A stretch of DNA of 64,000 bases from Anaerolineales bacterium (GCA_040882365.1 JBBEBI010000028.1:34511-98510), one strand, 5' to 3'. Positions 17,843 through 48,561 are shown, counted from the stretch's first letter. The notes: generated by a model not told the origin, from the sequence alone. Program-made: numbers and translations.

Positions 17843-17848
17843 TGATAG

Positions 17849-18309: not shown

Positions 18310-18320
18310 AAGGCGTCGTC

Positions 18321-18349: not shown

Positions 18350-18374
18350 CTCGGCTCACAAAAGCTGCCTCGAC

Positions 18375-18448
<74 letters not shown>

Positions 18449-18484
18449 CTCGATCGGTTGACAATAGGCAATGACGGTAACTAG

Positions 18485-18512
18485 AAGAAGGCCACCCCAG
18501 GATGGCCTTCTT
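18485..18512. terminator. Bidirectional terminator
   Basis: AAGAAGGCCA...TGGCCTTCTT inverted repeat between convergent transcripts. Confidence 0.7.
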
Positions 18513-18519
18513 GATCTGG

Positions 18520-19752
18520 TCAGCTATTTGCCATGACCAACTTTTTGTAAATCCCCTCAATTCCCATTGCAGCCCGTTCCCAGGAATACTTTTCGGCTTC
18601 CCGCCGCGCTGCCTGCCCCATCTTTTCTAACAGTTCTTCGTTGGCCAGCAACTCAACCAGCCTTCCTGCCAATTCGCCGGGGTTGCCTTCCTGCACATGG
18701 AAACCCGTGAGGCCGTCCTGCACCAAGTAGGCCAGCCCTCCAACACGCGAGGCTACCACCGGCCGGCCGCAGGCCATCGCCTCGAGCGCCACCATGCCGA
18801 ACGATTCGGAATACGAGGGCATCACCACCACATCCGCGGCGGCGTAGTAGCTGGGCAGGTCTCGCTGGCGTCGGCTGCCCAGGAATTCGATGAAGTTTTG
18901 CATGCCCAGCTCACGGGCCAAGGTGCGCAGGCGGGCCATCTCGCTCTCCAATATTTCCAAGTCTTCTTCCACATCGCCGCCCACGACTCGGACACGAAAC
19001 TTTCTGCCGCCCGGAGATCCTTGGCTAGACATCAAATGCGCGGCGCGGATCAGGGTGTCGATCCCCTTCAACGCTTCAATGCGCCCGACGAATAGCAGCA
19101 GGCTTTCGTCCGCGGCCAACCCAAGTTCCTCCCGCGCTTGCTTCTTGTCTAGTGGCCGGAATAGATCCAAATCGACTCCGGGGGGCACCACGCAGATGCG
19201 GTCAGTGTGCACCTCATACAACCATTGCAGGTCCGCCTGCTCGGCCGGTGTGGCAGCCACCACCATGTCGGCGGCCGCCATTGCGCGCCGCTCCCCCAGG
19301 ATACGCGCATCGCTCTCACGTTCACCCAAGACGGCAATGCGATTCTTCACCAGGCCCAGAGTGTGGAACATCAGCAGCATGGGAATCTTCCAAGCCGCCT
19401 TCAGGCGCGCCCCTACCAAGCCGGACATCCAATAATGAGCGTGAATCAACTCGTATTCAATACCCTCGGCCTGTTGAAAGGATAAAACGGCGGCGGCGAA
19501 CTCGGGGATGTAGGCGGCCAACTCGTTCTTGGGAACTTCTCGTCGCGGCCCAGCCGGCAACGATATCAGGCGAACTCCCGGAGCAGTCACTTCCTCGCTG
19601 GCTGCAACGCCCCGTGTGAAGATATCGACCCGGTGGCCAATCCGCGCCAGTTGGGCGCTCAACTCTCGCACATAGACGTTCATACCTCCGCTGTGCTTGC
19701 CACCCAGCGCGGCCAACGGGCTTGTGTGGTATGAAAGCATGGCAATGTTCAC
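18520..19752 (-). CDS. GT4 glycosyltransferase, MshA-like
   Basis: HTSPL...SGGMNVY, HAHYWMSG, FVGRIEALKG, SESFGMVALEA. Confidence 0.88.
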   Translation of the reverse strand: MNIAMLSYHTSPLAALGGKHSGGMNVYVRELSAQLARIGHRVDIFTRGVAASEEVTAPGVRLISLPAGPRREVPKNELAAYIPEFAAAVLSFQQAEGIEYELIHAHYWMSGLVGARLKAAWKIPMLLMFHTLGLVKNRIAVLGERESDARILGERRAMAAADMVVAATPAEQADLQWLYEVHTDRICVVPPGVDLDLFRPLDKKQAREELGLAADESLLLFVGRIEALKGIDTLIRAAHLMSSQGSPGGRKFRVRVVGGDVEEDLEILESEMARLRTLARELGMQNFIEFLGSRRQRDLPSYYAAADVVVMPSYSESFGMVALEAMACGRPVVASRVGGLAYLVQDGLTGFHVQEGNPGELAGRLVELLANEELLEKMGQAARREAEKYSWERAAMGIEGIYKKLVMANS

Positions 19753-19809
19753 GGGTCTATCCTGGGAATTTTTCCAGATTGGCTCTCGGTTATAATCCGC
19801 GCTCGCAGG

Positions 19810-19882
19810 GCCACCGTAGCTCAGTTGGCAGAGCAGTCGCTTCGTAAGCGACGGGTCGTGGGTTCGAGTCCCACCGGTGGCT
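19810..19882 (+). tRNA. tRNA-Thr(CGT)
   Basis: Acceptor GCCACCG/CGGTGGC, anticodon arm GTCGC-TTCGTAA-GCGAC. TATAAT upstream at 19791-19796. Confidence 0.95.
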
Positions 19883-19892
19883 CTTTTCTCCG

Positions 19893-20174
19893 CTACAAGC
19901 TCTCTTTATTTCCTGCGTCTTGTTCCTTGATCCTTTTCAGGATGTGGTCGCGCACATCCATATAAGCGTCGCTGATCTCCGGGCGGTGCCGGCTGAAGAG
20001 CAGAATGGGAAAGAGCCGGTATCTCTTATTCAGCCACTCGAGTGCCAGACGCGCGTCGCCACCGCCTATTTTGAGGGCCCGATTAAGCAGGCGAGCAAAA
20101 TTACGGCTATACACTTCCCGATCATAACTTGGGGGCATAAGCTCGATAATTATAGTAGACCTATCCGATCCCAA
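19893..20174 (-). CDS. Small hypothetical protein next to the tRNA-Thr 3' end
   Basis: 93-aa ORF filling a lower-GC intergenic gap; no recognisable motif. Confidence 0.4.
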   Translation of the reverse strand: MGSDRSTIIIELMPPSYDREVYSRNFARLLNRALKIGGGDARLALEWLNKRYRLFPILLFSRHRPEISDAYMDVRDHILKRIKEQDAGNKESL

Positions 20175-20228
20175 GCTCCATTCCAGTTAATTAATCGGCT
20201 TTCCCCCCTCATCCCTTATAATCGTTGC

Positions 20229-20900
20229 ATGCCCGTTGCCCGGCCTACCCCGCTCGTCATTGGCATCGCCGGCGGCAGCGGCTCCGGCAAGACCACCGTC
20301 TCGCAAACCATCCTGCAGCGCGCCGGCCCTGACCGCGTGGCCTACATCCAGCACGACTCGTACTACAAAGACCTCAGCGCCTTGGAACCAGCCCAACGCG
20401 CCACCACGAACTTCGACCATCCGAATTCATTGGAAACGGACCTCATGGTCGAGCACGTTCGCAAATTGCGCGCTGGGGAGGCGATTGACATTCCTTCCTA
20501 CGATTTCACCACGCACACCCGCAAGAGAGAGACGCAGCGCATCCAGCCGCGGCCCATCGTCCTCGTCGAGGGCATCCTGCTGTTCACGGACCCGCGTATG
20601 CGCGAGCTATGCGACCTGAAGCTGTTCGTGGACACGGATGCCGATATCCGCTTCATCCGCCGCTTGCAGCGCGACATCCACGAGCGGGGCCGCACCATGG
20701 AGTCGGTCGTCCAGCAATATGAAGCCACGGTGCGCCCCATGCACCTGGAATTCGTTGAGCCGTCCAAACGCTACGCGGACCTCATCATCCCCGAGGGCGG
20801 GTACAACGAAGTGGCCATGGACGTCTTCATGGCCCGCATCGAGGCTAAGATGCGCGAATTCAAACAGACACCCCTTCGCGAAAGGACCCTGACCAAATGA
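20229..20900 (+). CDS. udk: Uridine kinase
   Basis: [46 protein letters not shown]. Confidence 0.95.
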
Positions 20901-21406
20901 GCAAGCAGTGGAGCCAGCCTCCCGCAAAGGAGATCGATCCCAAGAAAGCCTACACGGCCACCTTTCAGACCGATCAGGGTGACATGGTTTTTAAGCTCTT
21001 TGCCGAGAAGGCACCGAAGACCGTGAACAACTTTATTTTCCTCGCCCGCCAGGGTTTTTACAATGGAACCGCATTCCACCGTGTCATCAATGACTTCATG
21101 GCCCAGGGAGGCGACCCCACCGGGACCGGCATGGGCGGTCCAGGCTACAAGTTCGAAGATGAATTCCATCCCGATCTACGCCACGATAAGCGCGGCATCC
21201 TTTCCATGGCCAACGCCGGCCCCCATACCAATGGCTCGCAATTTTTCATCACCCACCGCGCCACGCCCCACCTGGACGATAAGCATGCCGTGTTCGGCCA
21301 GCTGATCGCGGGCGAAGAAGTGCTCATGGCCATCCCGGCGCGCGACCCGAGCGGGAAGGGTGTGCCGGCCGGGCAGCTGGTCTCCGTCACCATTCAGGAA
21401 AGCTAG
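20897..21406 (+). CDS. Cyclophilin-type peptidyl-prolyl isomerase
   Basis: [34 protein letters not shown]. Confidence 0.95.
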
Positions 21407-21412
21407 CGCAAC

Positions 21413-21943
21413 ATGCCGCGCCTGGGCAAGTGGACGCCCTGGCGCGTCCTGGGATTATTGCTCGTCATCGCGCTCAGCCTGGCTATCCTGGCCATCCCCC
21501 AAGAGCAGATCAAGGCCCTGCAGGATTACGGCTATGCTGGCATCTTCCTGATTTCGCTGCTGGCCAATGTCACCATCATCATCCCCGCGCCGGCCATCCT
21601 GATCGTATTCGCTATGGGCGCACACCTTTCTCCATTGTGGCTGGGCTTGGCCGCCGGCAGCGGGGCGGCTTTAGGGGAACTCTCCGGCTATGTGGCCGGC
21701 CTCAGCGGCCAGGCAGTCATTGAAGACAACGCCACTTACCAGCGATTAGCGGCCTGGGTCCGCAATTATGGCGGGTTTACAATATTCGCACTGGCGGCCC
21801 TGCCCAATCCTTTTTTCGATCTGGGCGGCATAGCCGCTGGAGCATTGCGAATGCCGGTGCCGAGATTCTTGGCTTGGTGCGGGCTGGGAAAGATTTTGCG
21901 CATGACAGCGGTGGCTCTGGCGGGGGCAGGGATTCTCAAATAA
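21413..21943 (+). CDS. DedA/VTT-domain membrane protein
   Basis: GAALGELSGY, PNPFFD, GKILR. Confidence 0.85.
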   Translation: MPRLGKWTPWRVLGLLLVIALSLAILAIPQEQIKALQDYGYAGIFLISLLANVTIIIPAPAILIVFAMGAHLSPLWLGLAAGSGAALGELSGYVAGLSGQAVIEDNATYQRLAAWVRNYGGFTIFALAALPNPFFDLGGIAAGALRMPVPRFLAWCGLGKILRMTAVALAGAGILK

Positions 21944-33652: not shown

Positions 33653-34729
33653 CTAGAACATCATGGCGTTGGCTCTTTCGATCATACCCTTCGGCGGGCG
33701 CAGCTCTGTTTCGGTCATCCTATTCAAGGCTTGAGCCTTAGGCAGTTCAAAGAGGTCCGCCAATGAAGGCCTTTGCGGCTCTACGTAGATCAGCCCGGTT
33801 AGCAGAACGTCTTCACTCTGCGATTCTTCGATCAGGCGCATAGCCGCGGCGCGATCGGTCGGGTCATAGTCCCGATCCAGCTTCTTGAGCACGATCGTCG
33901 AGCCGTCGTGCAATTGGACGGTGCGCGTGGTGCCTTGGGGGAACTCACCGATCTGTATCTCCTGCTCGCGGGGAACAAAAGTGAAATCGTGAAGCGGCTC
34001 TTCATGCTCGCGGCCCCAACTGTAGGAGTGGCGGGCGTCGTCCTGATTATTGAAGGTTACGCAGGGGCTGATGATGTCCAGGATGGCCAGGCCATTGTGG
34101 CTGAGTGCCGCCTTGATCAGCGCCTTAACCTGATTGGCATCGCCCGCAAAGGAACGAGCCACGAAGGTTGCCCCGGAGGCCATGGCCTCTTGCACGATAT
34201 CCACGGCGGGATATGGGTTCGTCCCTTGGTATTTCAAGCGCAGCCCGGTTTCCGCGGTGGCGGAAAATTGCCCTTTGGTTAACCCATACACGCCATTGTT
34301 TTCGACGATGTAGACCATGGGTACGTTGCGGCGCATAATGTGCTTAAACTGCCCCATGCCAATGTTGGTGGTATCCCCATCACCGCTCACCGCGATCGAC
34401 TTCAGGCGGCGGTCGCCGAACATGGCGCCGGTGGCGATCGAGGGCATACGGCCGTGCAGGCTATTAAAGCCGAAACTGCGGTTCAGGAAATAGGCCGGGC
34501 TCTTGCTGGAGCAGCCGATGCCGGAGAGCTTGATCACATCCTCAGGCACCAGGTTGAGTTCAAAGGCGGCGGCGATGATCTGGTTGGAGACCGAGTTATG
34601 CCCACAACCCGCGCACAGCGTAGTCGCCGCGCCTCGGTAATCGTTCTTGGACAGGCCCACCAGGTTCAATTGCACATTAGCCCCGGTTGGCGCTGGGGTT
34701 TTCCCGTTAGTGTGTCCGTTCTCACTCAT
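33653..34729 (-). CDS. 2-oxoacid:ferredoxin oxidoreductase beta subunit
   Basis: LCAGCGH, SGIGCSS, HGR, GDGD TPP motif, NNGVYGLTKGQ, SPCVTFN. Confidence 0.95.
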   Translation of the reverse strand: MSENGHTNGKTPAPTGANVQLNLVGLSKNDYRGAATTLCAGCGHNSVSNQIIAAAFELNLVPEDVIKLSGIGCSSKSPAYFLNRSFGFNSLHGRMPSIATGAMFGDRRLKSIAVSGDGDTTNIGMGQFKHIMRRNVPMVYIVENNGVYGLTKGQFSATAETGLRLKYQGTNPYPAVDIVQEAMASGATFVARSFAGDANQVKALIKAALSHNGLAILDIISPCVTFNNQDDARHSYSWGREHEEPLHDFTFVPREQEIQIGEFPQGTTRTVQLHDGSTIVLKKLDRDYDPTDRAAAMRLIEESQSEDVLLTGLIYVEPQRPSLADLFELPKAQALNRMTETELRPPKGMIERANAMMF

Positions 34730-36560
34730 GGTTCTGCTCCTCGGCTTGGATCGCCTGTTTCACCCAGCGGGCATTCAGGGGCAAGCCATCGTGCTTGGGG
34801 ATGGAATGTAATTTGGCAGTCAGCTGGGGATACTCCAATTGCAGTAATTTGTGCATTTGCCCGTCGCGGTTCATTTCCACCACATAGATTTTCTTATGGC
34901 CAGCAATGAATTCGCGCACCTGGGACGTAAAGGGCACCGCGCGCAAACGCAGATAGTCCGTCTTCAATCCGTCCTCGGCCAAATAATCGCGGGCCTCCAA
35001 GATCGCCGGATCCGCGGATCCGTAGGCAATGATGCCGACTTCGGCATCATCCCCCGAGGTTACTTCGGGGGCAGGCACGAATTGCTGCGCCGTGGTGAAT
35101 TTATTCTTCAGGCGCAGCATATTCTTTTCCCAATCCCCTGCCTGCTCGCTGTATTTGGCCTCCTCATTGTGGCCGGTACCGCGGGCAAACCAAGCACTGC
35201 GCGGGTTTTTGTTACCGGGCACCGTTCGCCAGGTGATGCCGTCGCTGTCCACATCCTTGTAACGTCCCCACCCGTTCGTAAGTTTCTCCAGGTCCTCCTC
35301 CCATAGGATCTTGCCTCGATCCATAGGGGTTTCCGGATATTGGAAGGGCTTGGTCATCCACTGGTTCATGCCCAGGTCCAGATCGCTCATCACAAACACA
35401 GGGGTCTGCATGCGTTCGGCAACGTCGAATGCTCGCCAGCCAAACTCAAAACATTCTTGGGCTGACCCGGGAAGCAGGAGGATATGCTGCGTGTCACCAT
35501 GGCCAAGGAAATGCGTGGACAGGATATCGCCCTGGGAGGTGCGGGTGGGCAGCCCGGTGCTGGGCCCCACGCGTTGGACGTCCCAGATCACCACGGGAAC
35601 CTCGGCATAGTAGGCCAAGCCAGCGAACTCCGTCATCAGACTGATGCCGGGGCCAGAGGTTGAGGTCATAGAGCGCAACCCGGACCAGCCAGCGCCGATG
35701 GCCATGCCAATGGCGGCCAGCTCATCCTCGGCCTGCACGATAGCGTAGGTCTTGCCTTGCTGGCCCTCCTTATCGCGAAAAGTGCCGATATTCTGCGCCA
35801 ATGATTCCGCCAAACTTGAAGCGGGCGTGATGGGATACCAGGCTGCAAATTGCACCCCGCCGAAGATCGCCCCCAGCGCGGCGGCTGTGTTCCCATCGGC
35901 CATGACATAGCCGGCGGTCTTGTCCATAGGTTCGACACGATAGGGATCCGTCTTTGTCAGATTGGCCGCAGCCCAGGAATGCGCGGCTTGGATGACGCCT
36001 ATGTTGGTGGCGACGGGTTTTTCTTTTCCATCGAAGTGATATTCCAAAGCCTCGCGTATCTTCTGCATGTCAATGTCCAGCATTTTTGCCAGCACGCCGA
36101 CATAGGCCATATTGGCCACGTAATCCCGCAGATTAGCAGACGCCGAAGACTCTTTGGCCAGCTGCTTAGCCGGGAAACTATAGACGGAGATGTCGTCGCG
36201 GTTGACCTCAAATTTCAAGTGGTCGCCATAATAGAAGGCCCCGCCCGGCACCACGCTGGCCAGATCCTGGACAAAGGTGTCGGCGTTCATTGCCACTACG
36301 ATCTCTTGCGTGTTGCGCCGCGCCAAGTAGCCTTGCTTGCTAATACGGATGGTGTACCAAGTGGGCAGACCCTGGATATTGGAAGGAAATAAGTTCTTTC
36401 CGGATACCGGGATGCCCATTTTGAACAGGGCGCGCAGCAAAGTCAGATTCGAAGTCTGGCTGCCCGAGCCGTTCATGGTGGCCACGGTCATGGCAAAATC
36501 GTTGACGGCCTCGCCCCCTTCCTTGGTTTTCGCTGCTTCTATCACTTGCGGTGTTGTCAT
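34722..36560 (-). CDS. 2-oxoacid:ferredoxin oxidoreductase alpha (gamma-alpha fused) subunit
   Basis: YPITPAS, QAEDELAA, TSGPG, QRVGPSTGLPT, EMNRDGQ. Confidence 0.95.
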   Translation of the reverse strand: MTTPQVIEAAKTKEGGEAVNDFAMTVATMNGSGSQTSNLTLLRALFKMGIPVSGKNLFPSNIQGLPTWYTIRISKQGYLARRNTQEIVVAMNADTFVQDLASVVPGGAFYYGDHLKFEVNRDDISVYSFPAKQLAKESSASANLRDYVANMAYVGVLAKMLDIDMQKIREALEYHFDGKEKPVATNIGVIQAAHSWAAANLTKTDPYRVEPMDKTAGYVMADGNTAAALGAIFGGVQFAAWYPITPASSLAESLAQNIGTFRDKEGQQGKTYAIVQAEDELAAIGMAIGAGWSGLRSMTSTSGPGISLMTEFAGLAYYAEVPVVIWDVQRVGPSTGLPTRTSQGDILSTHFLGHGDTQHILLLPGSAQECFEFGWRAFDVAERMQTPVFVMSDLDLGMNQWMTKPFQYPETPMDRGKILWEEDLEKLTNGWGRYKDVDSDGITWRTVPGNKNPRSAWFARGTGHNEEAKYSEQAGDWEKNMLRLKNKFTTAQQFVPAPEVTSGDDAEVGIIAYGSADPAILEARDYLAEDGLKTDYLRLRAVPFTSQVREFIAGHKKIYVVEMNRDGQMHKLLQLEYPQLTAKLHSIPKHDGLPLNARWVKQAIQAEEQNHE

Positions 36561-37219
36561 TCTGGCCTCTTGTCAATGAGTTCAAAGTGCTCGTTGAGCA
36601 CTTGATGTCCGCTGGCAAAATCACCTTCCTCGATAGCCTTCACGATGCGGCGATGCATATCCCAAACCTGCTCCAAATACTTAAGTCCCGCATATCGGCT
36701 CAGCCCCACCGCTTCGTATGCTGACCAATAGGCCTCAAGCAAACCGAGCACGAATGGATTTCCCAGGTGGCGAAAGATAGTGAGATGCAGCTCGCGATGC
36801 TCCGCGTGCGGCACGCGCACGGGGGGGCCGTGCAGCATTTCGTCCGCCCGCTCCACCAACTCGCGCAAATGGGCAACATCTTCCCGGGTCAGCTTCTCTA
36901 CCGCTTCGAACCAGTAGGCCCGCTCCAGATGGCGGCGTACATCGGCGAACTGGTCAAAGCTATGTCTGTCTCGCGCCATGGCATAGGAGAGGCTTTCACG
37001 CACAGCCGGGGCGAAGGAATACGGCAGGCGGCGGATGCCGGTGCGCGGGCGCACCTCCACCAACCCTAGGGCACGGGCTACCTGCAACTGCTCGCGTAGC
37101 ACAGAAATGCTGACGCCATGCTGGGCACTTAGGGCTTCTAGCGAGGGCAACTGATCGCCGTGACCGTTGCCAGTCGCCAGATAGGCGAGGAAATCGAAGG
37201 AAGTGGCGTTTTTTAGCAT
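36557..37219 (-). CDS. GntR/FadR-family regulator (FCD domain)
   Basis: LPSLEALS..GVSISVLRE wHTH; HRELH...NP and MHRRI FCD motifs; ATGA overlap with the alpha gene. Confidence 0.88.
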   Translation of the reverse strand: MLKNATSFDFLAYLATGNGHGDQLPSLEALSAQHGVSISVLREQLQVARALGLVEVRPRTGIRRLPYSFAPAVRESLSYAMARDRHSFDQFADVRRHLERAYWFEAVEKLTREDVAHLRELVERADEMLHGPPVRVPHAEHRELHLTIFRHLGNPFVLGLLEAYWSAYEAVGLSRYAGLKYLEQVWDMHRRIVKAIEEGDFASGHQVLNEHFELIDKRPE

Positions 37220-37249
37220 AATTCCTCTGACGAATGCAATTAGTTGCAT

Positions 37250-38396: not shown

Positions 38397-38480
38397 TCAA
38401 AAACCCTAATCAGGTGTGTTTTTTAGAATTCGCGCTAGTCGTTATTCTCGGACTCGGTGGCATACAACAAGGCAGATTTG

Positions 38481-39434
38481 TCAGTCGTTTGTTTTCGGCT
38501 TTTTGGCTTCCGCCTTACCGCAGTCGCAGCCGCCATTCTCGTGGCGGTCGCAGGGGGACTCGGACTTGCGGCGCAGCGCCTCCAGCTCATCCCAGGGTTC
38601 CACTTCATGCTTCAAGAATTCGGCGCGCTTACCTTCAGCCAAGCTTACGATTATCGCCTGCTTCATCGGCACCACGTCGATCACTTTACCTCTCCCCAGC
38701 GGCGTGACCACATCCTTGCCGCGTTTGGGCAGCGTCTTGCGCGCTTCCACGTATTGCTCGTACTCATAGATCAAACAGCAACGCAGCCGGCCGCACATGC
38801 CGGTGATCTCCTGCGGGTCCAGCGAAATGCCCTGCGCCTTGGCCATTTTTATCGAGATGGGGCTGAATTCGGTAAGGAACATGGAGCAGCAGCGCGTCTC
38901 CAAGCCGCAGGCGCCCATGCCGCCCAGGATCTTGGCCACGTCGCGCGGCCCCACTCTGCGCATTTCCACTTTGGATTTGCCGTAGGTGGTTTGCATTTCC
39001 TTACGCAGATTTTCCAGATTGATTTCTTCGTCACCCTCGGTGTTATACAAAAAGGTAAGCGAGGTGCCGTCGAAAGTAAATTCCGCCTTGACGATCTTGA
39101 CCCCTTTGTGATTAAGCTTGGAAGCTGTGGCACGACATTCGATCATCGCTTCAACTTCCTTTTTCTGCCACCCCTTCAACTTTTCGAGGTCAACCTCAGT
39201 TGCTTTGCGCTCAATGGCTTTCCAGCTGCCTTGCGGCGGCTGCGCCGGTTTATCCAATCGCTGCACTACCTGGCCGATCTGCACGCCACGGCTAGTTTCC
39301 ACAACTGCGTAATCGCCCGGTTTCAGATCGGGGACCTTGGTAGCATCGAAATGATACAGTTTACCGACTTTTTGGAAACGCACACCCACGATCTGTGGCG
39401 AAACAGTCTCGGCTGCTTGGGGAGCTTCACTCAT
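38481..39434 (-). CDS. PSP1-domain protein (RicT/YaaT-like)
   Basis: VGVRF..GKLYHF, GACGLETRCC, SIKMAKAQ, GMCGRLRCCLIYE; extra C-terminal Cys cluster. Confidence 0.9.
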   Translation of the reverse strand: MSEAPQAAETVSPQIVGVRFQKVGKLYHFDATKVPDLKPGDYAVVETSRGVQIGQVVQRLDKPAQPPQGSWKAIERKATEVDLEKLKGWQKKEVEAMIECRATASKLNHKGVKIVKAEFTFDGTSLTFLYNTEGDEEINLENLRKEMQTTYGKSKVEMRRVGPRDVAKILGGMGACGLETRCCSMFLTEFSPISIKMAKAQGISLDPQEITGMCGRLRCCLIYEYEQYVEARKTLPKRGKDVVTPLGRGKVIDVVPMKQAIIVSLAEGKRAEFLKHEVEPWDELEALRRKSESPCDRHENGGCDCGKAEAKKPKTND

Positions 39435-39436
39435 AT

Positions 39437-40528
39437 TTATTCATCGACCATTCTAATCGGTATGGCCTGATTTTGCGTGGTCAAAGCGGCTGCAGATGCT
39501 CGGAGAGAAAGATCCGCGGCGATGGCCTTCAACGCCTGGGCGGCCGCAGAATCGGGATGGCTATGCACGATCGGCTTGCCGCCATCGCTGCCAGCCCGCA
39601 CTTCTGACTCCAGCGGGATGCTGCCGATGAAGGGCACGCCGAATTCCTTCGCCAGCATCTCTCCGCCACCGCGACCGAAAACTTCCATGCGTGTCCCGTC
39701 GGGCAGGTCCATGTAGCTCATATTCTCGATGATGCCCATAAGCGGCACGCGCAGTTGGCGGAACATCTCGGCGCCGCGGCGCGCATCATCTACGGAGACC
39801 TTCTGCGGCAGTGTGACGATGACACCACCGCTGAGCGGGGTGGTCTGCGCCAGAGAGAGTTGCACGTCGCCGGTGCCTGGCGGCATGTCGATGATCAGGT
39901 AATCCAGCTCGCCCCACTCCACATCATTCATGAACTGGCGCATGGCGTTATGCAGCATGGGCCCGCGCCACACCATGGCTTGCTCGGGTTTCACCAGGAA
40001 GCCGATGGACATGAGCTTCACGCCATAAGCTTCTGCAGGAGCCAAGCGGCCGCTGCCATCCGGCGGCACAGGCAGATGATCCACCCCCATCATGGTGGGG
40101 ATGTTGGGGCCGTAGATATCCGCGTCCAGCAATCCAACGCGTGCCCCAGCTTGCGCCAGGGCCACGGCCACATTGGCCGCCACGGTGCTCTTGCCTACCC
40201 CACCCTTTCCGGAGGCAACGGCCAAGACGTTCTTGACACCGGCGGCCAGCCCCGTCCGCGGCCGACCGTCGGAAGGAACTTCGGCACTCAACTCGATTTT
40301 TACTTTGGATGCGCCGGCTTTTTGCAATGCAACATTCACCTGCTGTTCGATTTGTTCTGCAAACGGATGTGAAGGCGTAATGAGCACAAGGCGCAGGCTG
40401 ACTTCCGTCCCCTTAATGTGCAGATCGCGCACCGCATCCAACATCATCAGATCTCGTTTAAGCGCAGGATCCTGAACCGAGCTTAGTGCGGCGAGCGCTG
40501 CCTCTTGGGTTAGTTGGTCTTTCGGCAT
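39437..40528 (-). CDS. mrp: Mrp/NBP35 (ApbC) Fe-S carrier ATPase
   Basis: VASGKGGVGKST, DADIYGP, WRGPM, DMPPGTGD, ENMS; N-terminal FeS_assembly_P-like domain. Confidence 0.93.
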   Translation of the reverse strand: MPKDQLTQEAALAALSSVQDPALKRDLMMLDAVRDLHIKGTEVSLRLVLITPSHPFAEQIEQQVNVALQKAGASKVKIELSAEVPSDGRPRTGLAAGVKNVLAVASGKGGVGKSTVAANVAVALAQAGARVGLLDADIYGPNIPTMMGVDHLPVPPDGSGRLAPAEAYGVKLMSIGFLVKPEQAMVWRGPMLHNAMRQFMNDVEWGELDYLIIDMPPGTGDVQLSLAQTTPLSGGVIVTLPQKVSVDDARRGAEMFRQLRVPLMGIIENMSYMDLPDGTRMEVFGRGGGEMLAKEFGVPFIGSIPLESEVRAGSDGGKPIVHSHPDSAAAQALKAIAADLSLRASAAALTTQNQAIPIRMVDE

Positions 40529-40604
40529 ATGTCTATATTGTAGTCGCCAGGACCAGCCTACTGGGCGCCTGACCTCTTCGTGGAGGTTTTCGAAATTTAA
40601 TGGA

Positions 40605-40913
40605 TTACCACTTCCCCACGTCTGCGTGCGCCCTCTCGACCCCCTTCAACAGCATCCTCTCTCCACCGCGGTAACGCCGTACTGCGTCCTGGGCGCAAAG
40701 CGTACAACCTTTCATGGCACGGAACGAATCGGCATTGCAATTGTGGCAGCCATTCACCCGCGCCATGGCCAGCACAAAGCTAATCGCCTCTATGGAATCC
40801 GGGGCAGCCTTGGCGGCCTTGTCCACGGCCTTGCGCCAAGCGGGACCATGCAGGTCTCGCAAAGCCGGGGTTACGCGCAGTGGAAAAATGATCTCAGTGT
40901 CTTCGTTATACAC
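40605..40913 (-). CDS. Small hypothetical protein with CxxC-x10-CxxC
   Basis: 102 aa, GCHNCNADSFRAMKGCTLC; directly downstream of nuoI. Confidence 0.75.
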   Translation of the reverse strand: MYNEDTEIIFPLRVTPALRDLHGPAWRKAVDKAAKAAPDSIEAISFVLAMARVNGCHNCNADSFRAMKGCTLCAQDAVRRYRGGERMLLKGVERAHADVGKW

Positions 40914-40952
40914 GTAGTTGCGAGGGCGCCGACAGGCGCCCGAAGCAATCTC

Positions 40953-41591
40953 CTAGCTGCTTTGCGCCGGAGCCGCAGGCATCGCCCTGGCTGCAGCCGC
41001 CTCAGCCTTCTTGGCGGCCTCGGCTGCACGGACGGCTTCCTCCCGGCCATAATTGGTCGGGCGGATATCGGCATAGTATGAAACCGGCTTGGAAAGCTTC
41101 TCTTTGTTGTAGATATGCTCGATATGCCGGTCGAACGCAGCCAACTCGTAATCGTGGTCCATCTTGATGGCATCGAACGGGCAATATTCGGCGCAATAGC
41201 CGCAATTCATACAGATGTCGATATCAATGTAAAACTCGACTGGCTCGGGCACCGGGCGCTTGGTCACCGGATCTTCGGTGCGCACGATCCAAATGCACTG
41301 CGGAGGGCATACTTTGGCGCAAATGCCGCAAGAGGTACAGCGATCGTGCTTGTGGCCCTGCTCATCGACTTCATAAACCAGGAATGGGATGAAGCGGAAT
41401 TCCTCGGGGACTGGAAGCTTTTCCTCCGGATATTGGACGGTGAAAATCCCTTTCGTGTCACTGCTGCGGCGGTGCTCGATGCCTTCGGGTGTGTAATACC
41501 GCTTGCCCATCCAGCGTATATCGTCCACAAAAGTCTGCACGAAGTGGGTCAGTGTCACCCACATGCCCTTTAGAATGCCGATTCCGTACAT
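40953..41591 (-). CDS. nuoI: NADH-quinone oxidoreductase subunit I
   Basis: TVQYPEEK; two CxxCxxCxxxCP ferredoxin motifs. Confidence 0.92.
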   Translation of the reverse strand: MYGIGILKGMWVTLTHFVQTFVDDIRWMGKRYYTPEGIEHRRSSDTKGIFTVQYPEEKLPVPEEFRFIPFLVYEVDEQGHKHDRCTSCGICAKVCPPQCIWIVRTEDPVTKRPVPEPVEFYIDIDICMNCGYCAEYCPFDAIKMDHDYELAAFDRHIEHIYNKEKLSKPVSYYADIRPTNYGREEAVRAAEAAKKAEAAAARAMPAAPAQSS

Positions 41592-41615
41592 TAATCAGTC
41601 TCCAAATCCCATGGC

Positions 41616-43394
41616 TTATCGATCGACTTCGCCGAGCACTATGTCAATCGAACCGAGGTTTACCACCACGTCGGCGATCTTTTGGCCGACGCACATCTTT
41701 TCCAGGATGGTCAAGTTAATGAAGGACGGGGCACGCACGTGGTAGCGATATGGATTGGCCTTACCGGTGGAAACGATATAGAAGCCCAGTTCGCCTTTGG
41801 GCCCTTCTACACGGCCATAGGATTCCCCGGCTGGCACGCGCACCTGGTAAGGGTTCTTGCCCGTCATGATCTCCCCGCCGGAGATCTGTTTGACGGCCTG
41901 TTGCAAGATACGCAAGCTTTGACGCATCTCGTCGACGCGAATCATGTAGCGGTCATACACGTCGCCGTGATAGCGAACGGCGACATCGAAATTGAAGCGG
42001 TCATAAATGCTGTAGGGGTCGGCGCGGCGAATGTCGTAGGGCACGCCGGAGGCGCGCAGCACGGGTCCGGCGGTCGAGAACGCAATGGCATCCTCGGGGG
42101 TGATGATGCCCACGCCTTCACCGCGGCTGCGCACTAATTCGTTGGCAGTCAGATACAGGTCCAGCTCATCGATCTTGCGCGGCAAACGCTCGTTGACCAG
42201 GTCCTTGATCTTGTCCAGCGTACCCGCCGGGAGATCGCGGGCGACACCGCCGAAGCGGAAATAGTTGCACATCATGCGCGAGCCCGCCACGGCCTCGAAC
42301 ACGTCCAGGATTAATTCCCGTTCGGTGATGGCATACAGCGCCGGGGTGAAGAAGGCACCCAGGTCGTTGAGCAGGAAACCGATAGCCCATAGGTGATTGC
42401 TGATGCGGGTAAGCTCAGCCATGATCACGCGGATGTATTCGGCGCGTTCCGGCGGTGCGGATTTTTCGCCCATCAACTTTTCCACCGCCAAGGCGTAGCC
42501 GAAATTGTTGCTCATGGAAGATAGATAATCCAGACGGTCGGTAAACGGCATGTTCATAATCCAGGTATTGCGTTCGCCGATCTGTTCGTGGTTGCGATGC
42601 AAATAACCCATCACCGGCTTAAGCGCCACGATGGTCTCACCATCCAGGCGCACTGCCATGCGGAATACGCCGTGCGTCGAGGGGTGCTGTGGGCCCAAGT
42701 TGACCACCACTTGCTCTGTATCGAAATCTTCGGCGAATTCTCGCCCGGCTCGATCGAGCGACGCGTAGAGGTTCGGGTCGTCGCTTGCTTGAAATCCATC
42801 GGGGTCAAAGCCTTGCGGATACTTTACGTTCTTGCCGAACGGGTTATGGTCTTCGATGCGATACACCTGGCCTTCCGGCCAGCGGTTCTTGAAGGGTTTC
42901 AATTCCTCTTCGAAGTACGGTTCCTTCCAGTCCTTGCGCATCGGGTGGCCGTGGAAGCCTTCCCACATCAGGATGCGGCGCAGGTCTGGGTGGCCTTCAA
43001 ACTTAACCCCATAAAGGTCCCAAGCCTCGCGCTCCTGGAAATCAGCGCCCGGATAAACATCAACCAACGAGGGCACCGCCGAGTTATCGCGCGGGACTTG
43101 CACCTTGTAGACGAGAGCGCCGCCGCCCGTGGATTTGTACAAGTGATAAACAACTTCGATGAAGTTGTTGGCATTGGGCGCCTCGGAATAATAGTCAACA
43201 GCGGTGACGGAGGAGAGGAAGTCGTAACCCATCTCATCGCGAATGGCGGTAGCCACCTCGCGCAGTTTGGCGGCCTCGATAATATGACCTTCATAGCTGG
43301 GGCGCGCGTCGCGTTTCACCGCGCCGGGGAAGCGCTTTTCGAGTTCGGTGGGTTCGGCCGCAGGGGCGGTGGCAACAGGGGCTTGGTCTGTCAT
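41616..43394 (-). CDS. nuoCD: NADH-quinone oxidoreductase fused subunit C/D
   Basis: [27 protein letters not shown] (NuoC); [21 protein letters not shown]-terminal GEVDR (NuoD); no NiFe CxxC motifs. Confidence 0.95.
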
Positions 43395-43402
43395 GGCTCT
43401 CT

Positions 43403-44059
43403 CTAGTGGGCGGCCGGGGCGGCAGCTTGCGCCGGTGCGGGCTTACTGGCCACTTCTTTGATCAGCGCGCTTTCGCGCGGGTCGATGATATCGGGGCCGA
43501 GGATGGGCACCGGGATTGCCGGGATCTCACCTTTGCGATACCAGCGCACCTTTGTGATCGATTCTTTATCGATCTTTTCCTGGAGTTTCATCAGGCCGTG
43601 CAGAAGTGCCTGGGGTGTTGGGGGGCAGCCGGGTACGTAAACGTCCACCGGGACGTATTGGTCCACTCCAGATACGACGTTGTAGCCCTCTTTGAACGGC
43701 CCTCCCCCTGAGGCGCATGCGCCCATGGCCATCACATACTTGGGTTCGGGCATCTGGTTGTACAAGCGCACGATCTGGGGGATCATCTTCTTGGTGACAG
43801 TGCCGGAGACGATCATCAGGTCGGATTGGCGCGGGCTGGGCCGCATCACTTCCATGCCGAAGCGTGCCAGATCGTAACGGCTGGCCGCGGTGCAGATCAT
43901 CTCGATGGCGCAGCAGGCCAGGCCGAACATCATGGGCCACACCGAATAGCGCCGACCCATGTTCCAGATCTTATCGAGGGTGGTGATGGCGATGTTCTGG
44001 CGCATCTCCGGCGGAACTTCGTAACCGGCCGAATTCACTGTGGGTTTGTTCTCAGTCAT
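43403..44059 (-). CDS. nuoB: NADH-quinone oxidoreductase subunit B
   Basis: [30 protein letters not shown]. Confidence 0.95.
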
Positions 44060-44268
44060 ACCGGATTGTTCTCCTCGTACCACTCCTGGTAAATGGCTCC
44101 CAGGATCTCATCGTTGGCCAACTGTGGGTCGTCCGCAAAACCAGGCAGAGCGACCGTCCAGCGAAAAATGTCTCCTAACGAAACCTCATCCAAATTCTGC
44201 TGGGGACGGCTGGCCTTTAGGGCCAGCACGATCTCATATATGGCGTCCCAGTAGAGTGGCTGGGCCAT
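44056..44268 (-). CDS. iscX: Fe-S cluster assembly protein IscX-like
   Basis: LYWD..EI..AL...P......VSL.DI..W...[19 protein letters not shown]...W.EE parallels IscX/YfhJ; ATGA overlap with nuoB. Confidence 0.8.
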
Positions 44269-44293
44269 GTTTGGCCTTTGTTCTTTCGGTCAC

Positions 44294-44356
44294 ATTATAC
44301 ATGAGTGAATTTTCCAGTCAACGGGTATTAATAAGAAAACAAATATTTGCGTAATT
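44294..44356. promoter_or_regulatory. Promoter for iscX-nuo and candidate regulator operator
   Basis: Minus-strand TTGACT (44321-44316), 16 bp, TATAAT (44299-44294); imperfect AT-rich inverted repeat AATAAGAAAACAAATATTTGCGTAATT at 44330-44356. Confidence 0.55.
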
Positions 44357-44383
44357 AGTATATACTTAGAATTGTTTCTCCCA

Positions 44384-44989
44384 ATGCAATCGACCCGTCA
44401 ACGCATACTGGAGTACCTAGACCAGCGGGGCAGCGCCGGGGCTCGCCAGTTGGCCCAGGCCTTCCGCATGACCGCCGCTAACCTGCGCCGCCACCTGGGC
44501 ATCCTGCAAAGCCGCGGTCTGGTTCAGGTGATTGCCCAGCGGCCGGCTGCGGGCCGCGGCCGCCCGGAGCAGGTCTATGCCCTTGCGCCCGCAGCCAACA
44601 GCGCGGATTTGGAAAGGTTAACGCGGGCTTTGCTGGCTGATCTGTCCGCCTCCCCTGCCCGCGGGGGGCGCATCAAACGCCTCGCCTTTCGCTTGGCGGG
44701 TAATCAGGCGGCGCCAGGCGGCCAAACCACCCAGCGCCTGGTGGCGGCCGTGCAGCGCCTCGCGCCGCTTGGATACAAACCGCGCTGGGAAGCGCGGCCG
44801 CAAGGACCACAAGTAGTACTGGGCCGCTGCCCTTACGCAGCCATCATTGGCGACCACCCGGATCTCTGCCAGATGGACTCCCATTTGCTCGAGGAATTGC
44901 TCGGCGCGCCAGTTGAGCAGACGGCAAAGCTTCAGGTTGGACCACAGGGTCTGCCCCAATGCGTGTTTAAGGTGAAGACAGGCGCCTGA
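44384..44989 (+). CDS. SufR-like HTH transcriptional regulator
   Basis: TRQRIL..L wHTH, GRGRP..Y, C-terminal CPY-x9-C...C pattern as in Fe-S sensing SufR-type regulators. Confidence 0.8.
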   Translation: MQSTRQRILEYLDQRGSAGARQLAQAFRMTAANLRRHLGILQSRGLVQVIAQRPAAGRGRPEQVYALAPAANSADLERLTRALLADLSASPARGGRIKRLAFRLAGNQAAPGGQTTQRLVAAVQRLAPLGYKPRWEARPQGPQVVLGRCPYAAIIGDHPDLCQMDSHLLEELLGAPVEQTAKLQVGPQGLPQCVFKVKTGA

Positions 44990-45113
44990 GCAACCTTCAA
45001 CCCAAGCAATAAACGCAGCGCTGCAAGATTTGTCTTAACCTTCCCACACTGTTCTTTTTTGACAAAGCCCCTAATTTCCCCACGATAAAATCGTTCCGGT
45101 TAATAATTGTGCC

Positions 45114-47768: not shown

Positions 47769-48239
47769 ATGCTGGCAGCGCATGTCGCAGATAAAAAGGA
47801 AATCCGTTTCGAAATCGAAATCAATGCCACACCGGCAAAGGTATGGGCAAAACTTGCCACGCTTGAAGGGATGAACGAATGGTTGAGCCGCAAGCTAATT
47901 TTCGAGCACAGAATAGGCGGCCGCTTCCAAATGGAGGGCAACCAGCCGGGTGAAGGACCCTACCGCTTCGCGGGTGAAGTCGTGAAGCTGGTACCAGAAA
48001 AAGAATTGGCCTTCACCTGGAAATCGGAATTAGGCGAAGCCGCTGAATGGCCCGTTCACACATTGGTCACCTTCCACTTGGAGCCTGCGGGGGCAGGTAC
48101 CCGCGTGACGCTCACCCATACCGGCTTCGAGGCCCTGGGCGCAGCCCTGGGCAAGAGCGCCTATGAGGGGCACGTTCAGGGTTGGACTATGTCGGAAGCG
48201 CTCAAAGAACTCAAAAAGACCGTAGAGGCTGCCGGCTAA
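47769..48239 (+). CDS. SRPBCC/AHSA1-like domain protein
   Basis: INATPAKVW, L.FTW, TRVTLTH.GF, GW pattern. Confidence 0.88.
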   Translation: MLAAHVADKKEIRFEIEINATPAKVWAKLATLEGMNEWLSRKLIFEHRIGGRFQMEGNQPGEGPYRFAGEVVKLVPEKELAFTWKSELGEAAEWPVHTLVTFHLEPAGAGTRVTLTHTGFEALGAALGKSAYEGHVQGWTMSEALKELKKTVEAAG

Positions 48240-48240
48240 C

Positions 48241-48561
48241 ATGCCGCCTACCGCTTTCCAGGCCGTTGCCGACCCTATCCGTCGCGGCATCCTTGACCTG
48301 CTTCGGACCAGTGGCCCTCTGCGGGCAGGCGACCTCGCGGCCCACTTTCCCCAGATCAGTCGACCAGGGGTCAGCAAGCACCTACGGGTGCTGAGAGGCG
48401 CCCAGCTGTTACAACAGGAACGCCGGGGCCGCGAACTCTGGTACAGGCTCGATCCCCTGCCCCTCAGGCAAATCAAAGGCTGGTTGGGACAGTACCAGCG
48501 GTTTTGGCAGGCTCGCCTGGAAGCCCTGAAGCGGGCCTCTGAGGGCACAGAGAACAATTAG
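48241..48561 (+). CDS. ArsR/SmtB-family regulator
   Basis: AVADPIRRGILDLL, SRPGVSKHLRVL, RRGRELWYRL. Confidence 0.92.
   Translation: MPPTAFQAVADPIRRGILDLLRTSGPLRAGDLAAHFPQISRPGVSKHLRVLRGAQLLQQERRGRELWYRLDPLPLRQIKGWLGQYQRFWQARLEALKRASEGTENN

What the first reader, a model, noticed from the sequence alone, without database searches (positions are those of the whole stretch)
38481..44989. Complex I quinone module (nuoB-CD-I) alone, packaged with Fe-S maturation genes opposite a SufR-like regulator
Seen: one minus-strand run of iscX-like, nuoB (ATGA-coupled), nuoCD, nuoI, a Cys4 small protein, mrp and a PSP1/RicT gene. nuoA is absent before nuoB, nuoH is absent between nuoD and nuoI, and no nuoE-G or nuoJ-N is in the window. 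A SufR-like regulator is divergent. Known: NuoB and NuoI carry the Q-module Fe-S clusters; Mrp/NBP35-family proteins (Ind1/NUBPL) mature complex I clusters; IscX normally sits in isc operons; RicT binds [4Fe-4S]. Inference: a dedicated, Fe-S-sensing unit that makes and loads an exchangeable or stand-alone Q-module separately from the membrane arm. I regard this as the best candidate for an undescribed system here.
Basis: partly seen in the sequence, partly recalled or inferred. Interest (0 to 1): 0.75.

Follow-up and report, generated by a model that had tools for sequence, protein, structure and literature searches.

The report
Detached arm of split complex I
These genes encode the electron-transfer arm of a respiratory complex I whose membrane part is encoded elsewhere in the same genome, a layout already reported for this bacterial group, and only the small iron-sulfur-related helper genes packed around it are new and untested.

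Summary
The gene run is real. It is not a stand-alone Q-module. The same genome holds exactly the complementary operon, nuoA-H-J-K-L-M-M-N, on contig C16, plus a canonical nuoA-K cluster with nuoEFG on C23. NuoD and NuoH trees both place the two halves beside contiguous nuoA-B-CD-I-H-J-K-L-M-M-N clusters such as that of Herpetosiphon. This is the Chloroflexi "2M" complex I, and its separated nuoBCDI with fused nuoCD is in print (PMC7117926, citing Chadwick 2018).

The flanking linkage is conserved over 100 Anaerolineae loci: mrp 57 of 70, ricT 42 of 66, IscX 44 of 84, Cys4 40 of 73, regulator 44 of 76.

- The "Mrp" has no cysteine and lacks the family's CxxC cluster site.
- Mrp and RicT are single-copy here and persist in a relative that has no NuoD.
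- IscX and the orphan Cys4 protein were found only at this locus.
- The regulator is a paralogue of the genome's SufR and keeps three conserved cysteines.

This scan noted the same layout earlier on three other genomes. Verdict: a known system, with untested lineage-specific accessory genes.

The parts
44372..44989 (+). SufR-paralogue regulator: ArsR-type HTH plus a C-terminal domain with C153-x12-C166-x30-C197
   Evidence: Pfam HTH_20/HTH_5. TIGR02702 SufR scores only 31 bits against a cut-off of 178.8. It is 27% identical to a paralogue on C3 that lies divergent from sufC-sufB. The three Cys are conserved in 47/47, 47/47 and 44/47 aligned sequences. It lies divergent within 5 kb in 44 of 76 assessable loci.
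44340..44349 (.). Perfect 10-bp palindrome CAAATATTTG inside a conserved AT-rich block just upstream of the -35; possible operator (inferred)
   Evidence: Sequence read. The block is conserved in the 8-sequence same-genus alignment. A wider imperfect palindrome was reported. No binding test was done.
44294..44321 (-). Sigma-70-like promoter TTGACT-16-TATAAT (11 of 12) upstream of iscX
   Evidence: The -35 TTGAC and -10 GTATAATG are invariant in 8 same-genus loci.
44056..44268 (-). IscX-family protein (70 aa), translationally coupled to nuoB
   Evidence: ATGA overlap. Present upstream of nuoB in 44 of 84 assessable loci. Not found elsewhere in 4 genomes that lack it at the locus; the control genome has it only at the locus.
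43403..44059 (-). NuoB (cluster N2 subunit); start taken at the ATG that overlaps the iscX stop
   Evidence: PF01058 and TIGR01957. C49, C50, C115 and C145 are invariant in 36 orthologs.
41616..43394 (-). Fused NuoCD (quinone-site subunit)
   Evidence: PF00329 plus PF00346. No C-terminal Cys motif. Falls in the 2M-type clade, separated from canonical NuoD with support 100.
40953..41591 (-). NuoI (clusters N6a/N6b), with a Lys/Ala-rich C-terminal tail
   Evidence: TIGR01971 and Fer4. Eight invariant Cys in 36 orthologs.
40605..40913 (-). Cys4 protein: orphan helical protein with invariant C56-x2-C59-x10-C70-x2-C73
   Evidence: No Pfam or NCBIfam family. Alignment A2 of 46 sequences. AF2 pLDDT 95.4, six helices. 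No PDB fold match. 277 clusters at E<=1e-3 among 1.84 billion representatives. Present in 40 of 73 assessable loci.
39437..40528 (-). Mrp/NBP35-family P-loop ATPase with N-terminal DUF59 domain, cysteine-free (no CxxC)
   Evidence: PF10609 324 bits, PF01883. Zero Cys. D-L-P-D aligns to C-S-N-C of solved chain 8ZKC. It is the only strong PF10609 hit in the genome.
38481..39434 (-). RicT/YaaT (PSP1 domain), 2 nt after mrp
   Evidence: NF041131 191.5 bits against a cut-off of 70. Single copy by tblastn. Downstream in 42 of 66 assessable loci.

Best explanation
The run is the detached peripheral-arm (Q-module) operon of a Chloroflexi-type '2M' complex I.

NuoB (cluster N2), fused NuoCD (quinone site) and NuoI (N6a/N6b) dock on a membrane arm. 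That arm is encoded by a separate operon, nuoA-H-J-K-L-M-M-N, on contig C16 of the same genome. Together they make an 11-subunit-type enzyme without its own NADH-oxidising NuoEFG. A second, canonical complex I with NuoEFG is encoded on contig C23.

Shown: the gene content of the two loci is complementary, the two halves have congruent phylogenies, and relatives hold contiguous homologous clusters.

Inferred: physical assembly of the two halves, and the electron donor. The literature hypothesises ferredoxin. A 2-oxoacid:ferredoxin oxidoreductase is a frequent downstream neighbour.

The operon appears to be transcribed from a near-consensus promoter upstream of an IscX-family gene that overlaps nuoB by ATGA. 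It then runs through a Chloroflexota-restricted four-cysteine helical protein, a cysteine-free Mrp-family ATPase and RicT.

My reading of the extras, all inferred:
- IscX and Cys4 are optional factors specific to the Q-module, either helpers of cluster insertion or small accessory subunits.
- Mrp and RicT are housekeeping genes that share the transcription unit.
- The divergent SufR paralogue, which has three conserved Cys, ties transcription to Fe-S status through the AT-rich palindrome next to the promoter.
For: Complementary loci:
- Two nuoA and two nuoH lie in the genome. One pair is in a canonical cluster on C23. The other pair is directly adjacent on C16.
- The C16 genes are A, H, J, K, L, M, M, N by Pfam and NCBIfam.
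- There are only two sets of B, C, D and I: the window's and C23's.
- C23 carries C, D, E, F, G and I. E, F and G occur nowhere else.

Related clusters:
- Contiguous nuoA-B-CD-I-H-J-K-L-M-M-N lies in Herpetosiphon L138. L141 and L142 hold similar contiguous clusters (L141 begins in nuoCD; in L142 only one nuoM was detected).
- In G028 the two halves lie on one contig, 3.6 kb apart.
- In other relatives they lie 241-591 kb apart.

Trees:
- NuoD tree, 29 rows: canonical versus 2M-type split has support 100. The 18 split-type rows form one clade with support 99.
- NuoH tree, 13 rows: same topology, with supports 99 and 99.

[quoted passage not shown] C. aggregans has a 2M cluster plus a 14-gene cluster (PMC8004040 passages).

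Cluster ligands are invariant.

Operon structure: gaps between genes are 2 to 76 nt, there is an ATGA overlap, and a promoter scores 11 of 12 and is conserved within the genus.

IscX and Cys4 are seen only at the locus. Mrp and RicT persist without NuoD in G038.
Against: - No expression or protein data exist. No RNA run holds the stretch.
- The lengthened NuoL lateral helix, cited as a mark of 2M complexes, was not seen against the canonical NuoL of two relatives.
- The canonical nuoL, M and N are missing from this 88%-complete assembly, because C23 ends right after nuoK. That the canonical complex has its own membrane arm is therefore shown only in relatives G011 and G036.
- IscX and Cys4 are each absent from about half of the loci, so neither can be essential to the enzyme.
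- The regulator scores far below the SufR cut-off and has three, not four, cysteines.
- The G038 argument rests on one genome.
- The 100 loci are kin and were selected by likeness to NuoCD, so the counts describe conservation and are not independent events.
Confidence: 0.85

Rival explanations
1. First reader's reading. A stand-alone or exchangeable Q-module is made and loaded by a dedicated Fe-S-sensing unit, independently of any particular membrane arm.
For: The run lacks nuoA and nuoH. The halves lie hundreds of kb apart in complete genomes. The neighbours related to Fe-S metabolism are conserved. The genome has two membrane-arm starts, on C16 and C23, that a Q-module could in principle serve.
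Against: The membrane operon on C16 lacks exactly B, C, D and I. The canonical cluster has its own B, C, D and I. NuoD and NuoH of the two split halves have matching phylogenies. Contiguous homologues exist. Mrp lacks its cluster ligands. Mrp and RicT are kept without complex I.
Confidence: 0.05
2. The Cys4 protein supplies in trans the cluster ligands that the cysteine-free Mrp ATPase has lost, making a two-component Fe-S carrier for the Q-module.
For: cys4 lies directly upstream of mrp here (76-nt gap), and more tightly so in L048 and L062. Four Cys are invariant in a confident fold. Of 69 linked Mrp orthologs whose motif could be read, 68 lack CxxC.
Against: Five near-complete genomes (95-100%) with CxxC-less Mrp have no Cys4 anywhere, while the positive control found it in 5 of 5. 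Mrp without cys4 occurs in 22 loci, against 35 with it. In L084 and L131 Cys4 follows nuoI with no mrp hit in the locus (of these, only L131 had enough downstream sequence to count among the four cys4-without-mrp loci). Apparent Cys4-Mrp fusions are frameshift read-throughs. Whether the four-Cys site binds Zn or Fe-S is unknown.
Confidence: 0.12
3. The accessory genes are only neighbours. mrp-ricT is an old housekeeping pair beside which nuoB-CD-I landed, and iscX and cys4 are lineage-specific genes with no role in complex I.
For: Mrp and RicT are single-copy and stay adjacent in G038, which has no NuoD. In Caldilineaceae unrelated genes lie between nuoI, cys4 and mrp. IscX and Cys4 are each missing from about half of the loci.
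Against: IscX overlaps nuoB by ATGA. It was found nowhere but upstream of nuoB. Of 14 control genomes, only E. coli matched its family. Cys4 was likewise found only downstream of nuoI, apart from one second copy in G036. Linkage of mrp to nuoI spans several orders of the class.
Confidence: 0.25

Closest known systems
Chloroflexi-type '2M' complex I. Source: Chadwick, Hemp, Fischer & Orphan 2018, ISME J. The paper is not held; I saw it only as summarised in passages of PMC7117926, PMC8004040, PMC6606698, PMC9040806 and PMC12342949.
   Same: Two adjacent nuoM in the order L-M-M-N. No NuoEFG at either locus. nuoBCDI separate from the membrane operon, with fused nuoCD. A canonical 14-gene cluster coexists in the genome.
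   Different: The passages I read say nothing about IscX, the Cys4 protein, the cysteine-free Mrp, RicT or the SufR paralogue. No NuoL lateral-helix insertion was seen against canonical paralogues.
Cyanobacterial and chloroplast NDH-1: an 11-subunit complex I without an N-module (PMC3144371 abstract). Scattered ndh operons and ferredoxin as donor are recalled, not from a call.
   Same: An N-module-less core of NuoA-D and H-N homologues, encoded at more than one locus.
   Different: A different clade. It has oxygenic-specific subunits (NdhL-S, recalled) and no second NuoM. No homology of IscX or Cys4 to those subunits was found or tested.
Ind1/NUBPL and ApbC/Mrp: Mrp/NBP35 Fe-S carrier ATPases. 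Ind1 matures complex I (PMC6345978 passages; PMC6196649 abstract).
   Same: The same family (PF10609 324 bits; 8ZKC at E 4.8e-80). An intact deviant Walker A, GKGGVGKS. Genomic linkage to complex I Fe-S subunits.
   Different: The CxxC that holds the bridging [4Fe-4S] is absent, and the protein has no cysteine at all. In other classes of Chloroflexota, 18 of 22 Mrp homologues keep Cys in that loop and none is linked to nuo genes.
E. coli IscX/YfhJ (PDB 1UJ8, 2BZT)
   Same: Full-length profile match at E 2.6e-16, and TIGR03412 above its cut-off.
   Different: It does not lie in an isc operon. The genome has a sufCB...SU cluster and no IscU other than SufU. It is coupled to nuoB instead.
Cyanobacterial SufR, a [4Fe-4S]-sensing repressor divergent from sufBCDS (function recalled)
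   Same: HTH plus a C-terminal Cys domain, in divergent position to the operon it would control. It is a paralogue of the genome's own suf-linked regulator.
   Different: It scores below the SufR model cut-off (31 against 178.8 bits). It has three conserved Cys rather than four. It faces a respiratory operon, not suf.

Membership tests
Complex I Q-module (NuoB/NuoCD/NuoI) | NuoB with four Cys ligands of cluster N2, including the tandem CC | tested here: met
   C49, C50, C115 and C145 are invariant in 36 orthologs. PF01058 and TIGR01957 are above their cut-offs. That these Cys are the N2 ligands is recalled.
Complex I Q-module (NuoB/NuoCD/NuoI) | NuoI with two CxxCxxCxxxCP motifs | tested here: met
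   Eight invariant Cys in 36 orthologs.
Complex I Q-module (NuoB/NuoCD/NuoI) | NuoD-type large subunit, not a [NiFe] hydrogenase (no C-terminal Cys motif) | tested here: met
   PF00346 306 bits, NuoD models at about 450 bits. The C-terminus [12 protein letters not shown] has no Cys. The HPSTHG and DRLDY blocks are invariant. Their role at the quinone site is recalled.
2M complex I (Chloroflexi type) | Second nuoM next to the first, in the order L-M-M-N | tested here: met
   TIGR01972 scores 519 and 452 bits for the two middle genes. NuoL and NuoN flank them. The two NuoM are 35% identical.
2M complex I (Chloroflexi type) | nuoBCDI separated from the membrane operon, with nuoCD fused | tested here: met
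   Definition as quoted in PMC7117926.
2M complex I (Chloroflexi type) | No NuoE, F or G of its own | tested here: met
   E, F and G lie only on C23. None was seen at the 100 related loci with the queries used, but E, F and G were not among those queries.
2M complex I (Chloroflexi type) | Lengthened NuoL lateral helix | tested here: inconclusive
   NuoL is 718 aa, and its match is longer than the 615-position NuoL model. Against canonical NuoL of G011 and G036, no insertion of 10 aa or more lies in the C-terminal helix region. No reference NuoL of a one-M enzyme outside the class was compared.
IscX | Sequence family | tested here: met
   TIGR03412 49.4 bits against 40.4. PF04384. 1UJ8/2BZT at E 2.6e-16.
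IscX | Member of an isc operon with IscS and IscU | tested here: not met
   It is coupled to nuoB. The only NifU_N hit is SufU, next to SufS on C3.
Mrp/NBP35 Fe-S carrier (ApbC, Ind1) | Deviant Walker A GKGGhGK[ST] | tested here: met
   GKGGVGKS is aligned to the solved relatives. Motif as defined in PMC6345978.
Mrp/NBP35 Fe-S carrier (ApbC, Ind1) | Conserved CxxC that binds the bridging [4Fe-4S] | tested here: not met
   Zero Cys in the protein. DLPD aligns to CSNC of 8ZKC. Only 1 of 69 linked orthologs whose motif could be read keeps CxxC.
SufR | Scores as SufR, and has four C-terminal Cys | tested here: not met
   TIGR02702 31 bits against a cut-off of 178.8. Three conserved Cys; the suf-linked paralogue on C3 has a fourth.
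RicT/YaaT | Family model | tested here: met
   NF041131 191.5 bits against 70, and PF04468. Partners RicA and RicF were not sought.

The most novel reading that the evidence does not exclude
IscX-like and the orphan Cys4 protein are dedicated biogenesis factors, or small accessory subunits, of the N-module-less two-NuoM complex I. The cysteine-free Mrp ATPase has been turned from a cluster carrier into a cluster-independent assembly chaperone for the separately made Q-module. A three-cysteine SufR paralogue makes synthesis of the whole unit depend on the cell's Fe-S status. Together this would be a bacterial counterpart of the Ind1-type complex I assembly line, built from different parts.
Probability: 0.2. 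Interest if true: 0.6.

Novelty: new member of a known kind. Interest (0 to 1): 0.33.

Why it matters
The headline claim, a free-standing Q-module, dissolves into a published gene arrangement, so the locus itself is ordinary for Anaerolineae.

What is left is a set of concrete, cheap questions about how bacteria build complex I:
- Why is an IscX gene, whose family matched only E. coli among the 14 control genomes searched, welded to nuoB in a SUF-only organism?
- What does a conserved four-cysteine orphan protein bind?
- What does an Mrp ATPase do once it has lost its cluster site?
- Does a SufR paralogue control a respiratory operon?

Bacterial complex I assembly factors are little known, so a positive answer to any of these would be useful, though not surprising in kind.

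Tried and rejected
- **Complex prediction.** IscX as partner against NuoB 18-198, NuoCD 30-592 and NuoI 1-180, each with its own alignment. Result: 'no answer', score 0.00 in two runs, controls not folded. This is no evidence either way.
- **Sequencing runs.** No RNA holder is listed for window 38400-45000, only 14 DNA runs.
- **Cys4 fold.** Foldseek against PDB gave no match at E<=0.001. VIA-align against 48,161 chains gave a best Z of 4.7. The Atlas lists only 'hypothetical protein' clusters from Chloroflexota.
- **Cys4 fusions.** Among 150 listed representatives, the longer hits carry no informative domain, and the three whose sequences I read (P0144, P0131, P0135) look like frameshift read-throughs.
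- **Cys4 and CxxC loss.** Cys4 presence does not co-vary with loss of CxxC in Mrp. CxxC is missing whether or not cys4 is present.
- **IscX against Cys4, 61 loci.** Both present 13, IscX only 19, Cys4 only 22, neither 7. There is no clear pattern and the loci are kin.
- **Replacement ligands in Mrp.** The position aligned to the first Cys varies (E, D, T, A, S, K, I). Only the 'LPDG' turn recurs, and many orthologs delete the loop.
- **NuoL lateral-helix insertion.** Not seen.
- **Literature.**
  - Chadwick 2018 (PMC6194058) is not held.
  - Hug 2013 (PMC3971608): the passages found with 'complex I', 'nuo' and 'NADH dehydrogenase' mention a 14-subunit complex I in RBG-9 but no nuoBC/DI split. 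Its supplements are closed and may hold it.
  - No paper holding both IscX and Chloroflexi turned up in the search IscX + nuoB + complex I + Chloroflexi at 3 of 4 terms.
  - The search for ApbC, Mrp, CXXC motif, lack, NBP35 and Ind1 gave 8 papers (7 listed). By title and abstract start none concerned a cysteine-free bacterial Mrp next to nuo genes. I read only passages of PMC6345978.
- **The search of earlier findings.** Searches by place and by sequence gave nothing.

Full report
**Observation**

Pfam and NCBIfam name the genes as follows.

| Coordinates | Identity |
|---|---|
| 44056-44268 | IscX-family protein |
| 43403-44083 | NuoB |
| 41616-43394 | Fused NuoCD |
| 40953-41591 | NuoI |
| 40605-40913 | 102-aa protein without any family |
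| 39437-40528 | Mrp/NUBPL-family ATPase with a DUF59 N-domain |
| 38481-39434 | RicT/PSP1 |
| 44372-44989 | ArsR-type HTH protein whose best NCBIfam hit is SufR, far below its cut-off |

- The iscX stop and a nuoB ATG overlap as ATGA at 44059-44056.
- Gaps between the genes are 2 to 76 nt.
- A TTGACT-16-TATAAT promoter-like site (11 of 12) lies at 44321-44294 on the minus strand.
- No other nuo gene is in the window. nuoA and nuoH families, and tblastn with J, K, L, M, N, E, F and G, hit only contigs C16 and C23.

**Where the missing subunits are**

The window is C28:34511-98510 of a 2.2-Mb assembly in 67 contigs, 88% complete.

- Contig C16 carries, on one strand and back to back, nuoA, nuoH, nuoJ, nuoK, nuoL (718 aa), nuoM, a second nuoM and nuoN. 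ATP-synthase genes follow. These are exactly the subunits that the window lacks, and C16 holds no B, C, D or I.
- Contig C23 carries a canonical nuoA-B-C-D-E-F-G-H-I-J-K cluster that is cut by the contig end.
- The assembly has only these two sets of B, C, D and I.
- The canonical L, M and N are missing from the assembly. They are present, with a single M, in relatives G011 and G036.

**Do the halves belong together?**

A fused-NuoCD ortholog at 63% identity or more is present in 37 of the 41 genomes searched among relatives, counting the window's own (the tally includes unpublished G015).

I fetched two sets of loci.
- 20 kb around the ortholog in 20 of the 36 relatives that have one, chosen for contig length and spread of families.
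- 80 named loci, the best 80 of at least 599, from GTDB species genomes.

In Herpetosiphon llansteffanensis (L138) the homologous genes form one cluster, nuoA-B-CD-I-H-J-K-L-M-M-N. L141 and L142 are similar. L141 starts in nuoCD at the contig edge, and in L142 only one nuoM was detected. In G028 nuoA-H-J starts 3.6 kb after ricT on the same contig. In other relatives the halves are further apart: 591 kb in G011, 565 kb in G005 and 241 kb in G036. In G016 the gap is about 574 kb round the circle.

A NuoD tree of 29 rows (quick IQ-TREE, SH-aLRT) separates 7 canonical sequences from 22 of the 2M type with support 100. It makes the 18 split-type sequences one clade with support 99, next to the contiguous ones. 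A NuoH tree of 13 rows has the same shape, with supports 99 and 99.

The split is therefore a derived rearrangement of one enzyme's operon, not a free module.

**What is in print**

- PMC7117926 (passages) states, citing Chadwick et al. [quoted passage not shown]
- PMC8004040 (passages) describes a 2M cluster beside a 14-gene cluster in Chloroflexus aggregans.
- PMC6606698 (passages) gives the hypothesis that 2M complexes link quinol and ferredoxin.
- PMC12342949 (passages) gives the same hypothesis.
- The Chadwick paper itself is not held.

One cited mark of 2M enzymes is a longer NuoL lateral helix. I did not see it against the canonical NuoL of two relatives, and I leave that point open.

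**The neighbours**

Counts are over the 100 loci and include only loci with enough flanking DNA.

| Feature | Present / assessable |
|---|---|
| nuoB adjacent | 91 / 92 |
| nuoI adjacent | 92 / 92 |
| nuoA upstream | 3 / 81 |
| nuoH downstream | 3 / 80 |
| IscX | 44 / 84 |
| Divergent regulator | 44 / 76 |
| Cys4 | 40 / 73 |
| mrp within 7 kb | 57 / 70 |
| ricT | 42 / 66 |
| 2-oxoacid:ferredoxin oxidoreductase (korA) | 14 / 44 |

The loci are kin and were picked by likeness to NuoCD. The numbers show conservation across Anaerolineales, Aggregatilineales, Phototrophicaceae, Caldilineaceae and others. They are not independent events.

**Mrp**

The family's two signatures are a deviant Walker A and a CxxC that holds a bridging [4Fe-4S] (PMC6345978 passages).

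- The window's protein keeps GKGGVGKS but has no cysteine at all. DLPD aligns to CSNC of the solved carrier 8ZKC.
- Of 71 linked orthologs, the motif region could be read in 69, and only one (L114) has CxxC.
- Many orthologs delete the loop, and no replacement ligand is conserved.
- I also looked at the 30 best Mrp loci from a sample of 81 Chloroflexota genomes.
  - All 8 loci from the window's order lack CxxC, and 7 of them sit by nuoI/nuoCD.
  - Of the 22 from other families, 18 keep cysteines in the loop and none is next to nuo genes.
  - The 18 are 16 with CxxC and 2 with CPCGC. One of the two CPCGC rows is unpublished G065.
- It is the only strong PF10609 hit in the genome.
- In G038 (single contig, 99% complete) a cysteine-less Mrp still sits beside ricT, although that genome has no NuoD-family match; the control genome has 2.

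So Mrp and RicT are not dedicated to this complex, and the canonical carrier mechanism is not available to this Mrp.

**IscX**

The ortholog profile matches E. coli IscX structures over the full length at E 2.6e-16. The genome has a SUF cluster on C3 (sufC, sufB, sufS, sufU) and no other NifU_N hit. PF04384 was found in none of four relatives that lack it at the locus (G025, G030, G034, G038). It was found once, at the nuoB locus, in the control G011. Of 14 control genomes only E. coli matched. A complex prediction of IscX with the Q-module gave no answer.

**Cys4**

- Forty-six orthologs share invariant W26, C56, C59, G69, C70 and C73.
- The AF2 model is confident (pLDDT 95.4) and shows six helices.
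- It has no clear solved relative.
- A profile search of 1.84 billion representatives finds 277 clusters at E<=1e-3, nearly all of 90-150 aa.
- The longer hits I checked appear to be frameshift read-throughs.
- Five near-complete genomes with a cysteine-less Mrp but no cys4 at the locus have none elsewhere, while the control found it in 5 of 5. G038 has none either.

Cys4 is therefore not an obligate partner of the ATPase.

**Regulator**

It is 27% identical to a paralogue on C3 that lies divergent from sufC-sufB. Three cysteines (C153-x12-C166-x30-C197) are conserved in 47, 47 and 44 of 47 sequences, and the C3 protein has a fourth. In eight same-genus loci the -35 element, the -10 element and an AT-rich block are conserved. 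In the window that block holds the perfect palindrome CAAATATTTG at 44340-44349. That this site is an operator, and that the protein senses a cluster, are inferences.

**Verdict**

- The locus is a further member of the known Chloroflexi split 2M complex I.
- What remains new, as far as my searches reach, are the accessory genes:
  - IscX is coupled to nuoB and seen only there.
  - Cys4 is an orphan family.
  - Mrp is cysteine-free.
  - The regulator is a three-cysteine SufR paralogue.
- Three earlier notes of this scan reached similar points on other genomes. I re-tested their claims here, except the Hug 2013 citation, which I could not confirm.

Noticed in passing
window 33653-37249 (-): A GntR/FCD regulator and a two-gene 2-oxoacid:ferredoxin oxidoreductase (POR_N/POR, TPP_enzyme_C) lie just downstream of the operon. 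They recur downstream of ricT in 14 of 44 assessable loci. They are a possible source of the reduced ferredoxin that the literature proposes as partner of 2M complexes.
   Followed up: partly
G000 contig C23, end at 30015 (L010): The canonical nuo cluster is cut by the contig end right after nuoK. No canonical nuoL, M or N is in the assembly. Relatives G011 and G036 have them, with one nuoM.
   Followed up: yes
G000 contig C16, 4437-5976 (L009): ATP-synthase genes, including a PF00119 a-subunit, follow nuoN of the membrane-arm operon on the same strand.
   Followed up: no
G000 C3:45327-45815 and C45:58646-59059 (L007, L008): Two further PF01058 (NuoB/hydrogenase small-subunit family) hits at 84 and 80 bits, outside both nuo sets. 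They may be hydrogenase small subunits.
   Followed up: no
G038 (L169): This is the one genome of the order searched that has no NuoD-family match: single contig, 99% complete. It also lacks IscX and Cys4 but keeps the cysteine-less Mrp next to ricT.
   Followed up: yes
L121 (Anaerolineae bacterium STL-CHL21), 9214-21734: Here nuoB-CD-I is followed directly by a second nuoA-B-C/D... cluster, whose NuoD sits on a long branch in the canonical clade. The layout differs from both the split and the contiguous types.
   Followed up: no
L174, L175, L180, L191 (other Chloroflexota families): Four of 22 Mrp homologues outside the window's order have also lost the loop cysteines, without any nuo neighbour within 1.5 kb. 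Loss of CxxC is therefore not unique to the nuo-linked form.
   Followed up: no
G036:C1:4075520-4075801: A second Cys4-family copy lies about 1 Mb from the Q-module locus in a 6.4-Mb relative. It is the only Cys4 seen away from nuoI.
   Followed up: no
Caldilineaceae loci L112, L119, L128, L140: A metallo-hydrolase-like gene and an FAD-dependent oxidoreductase-like gene are inserted between nuoI, cys4 and mrp. I named them from their N-terminal sequences only; no family search was run.
   Followed up: no
window 47769-48561 (+): An AHSA1/SRPBCC-family gene is followed by a small ArsR-type regulator. They are unrelated to the finding.
   Followed up: no
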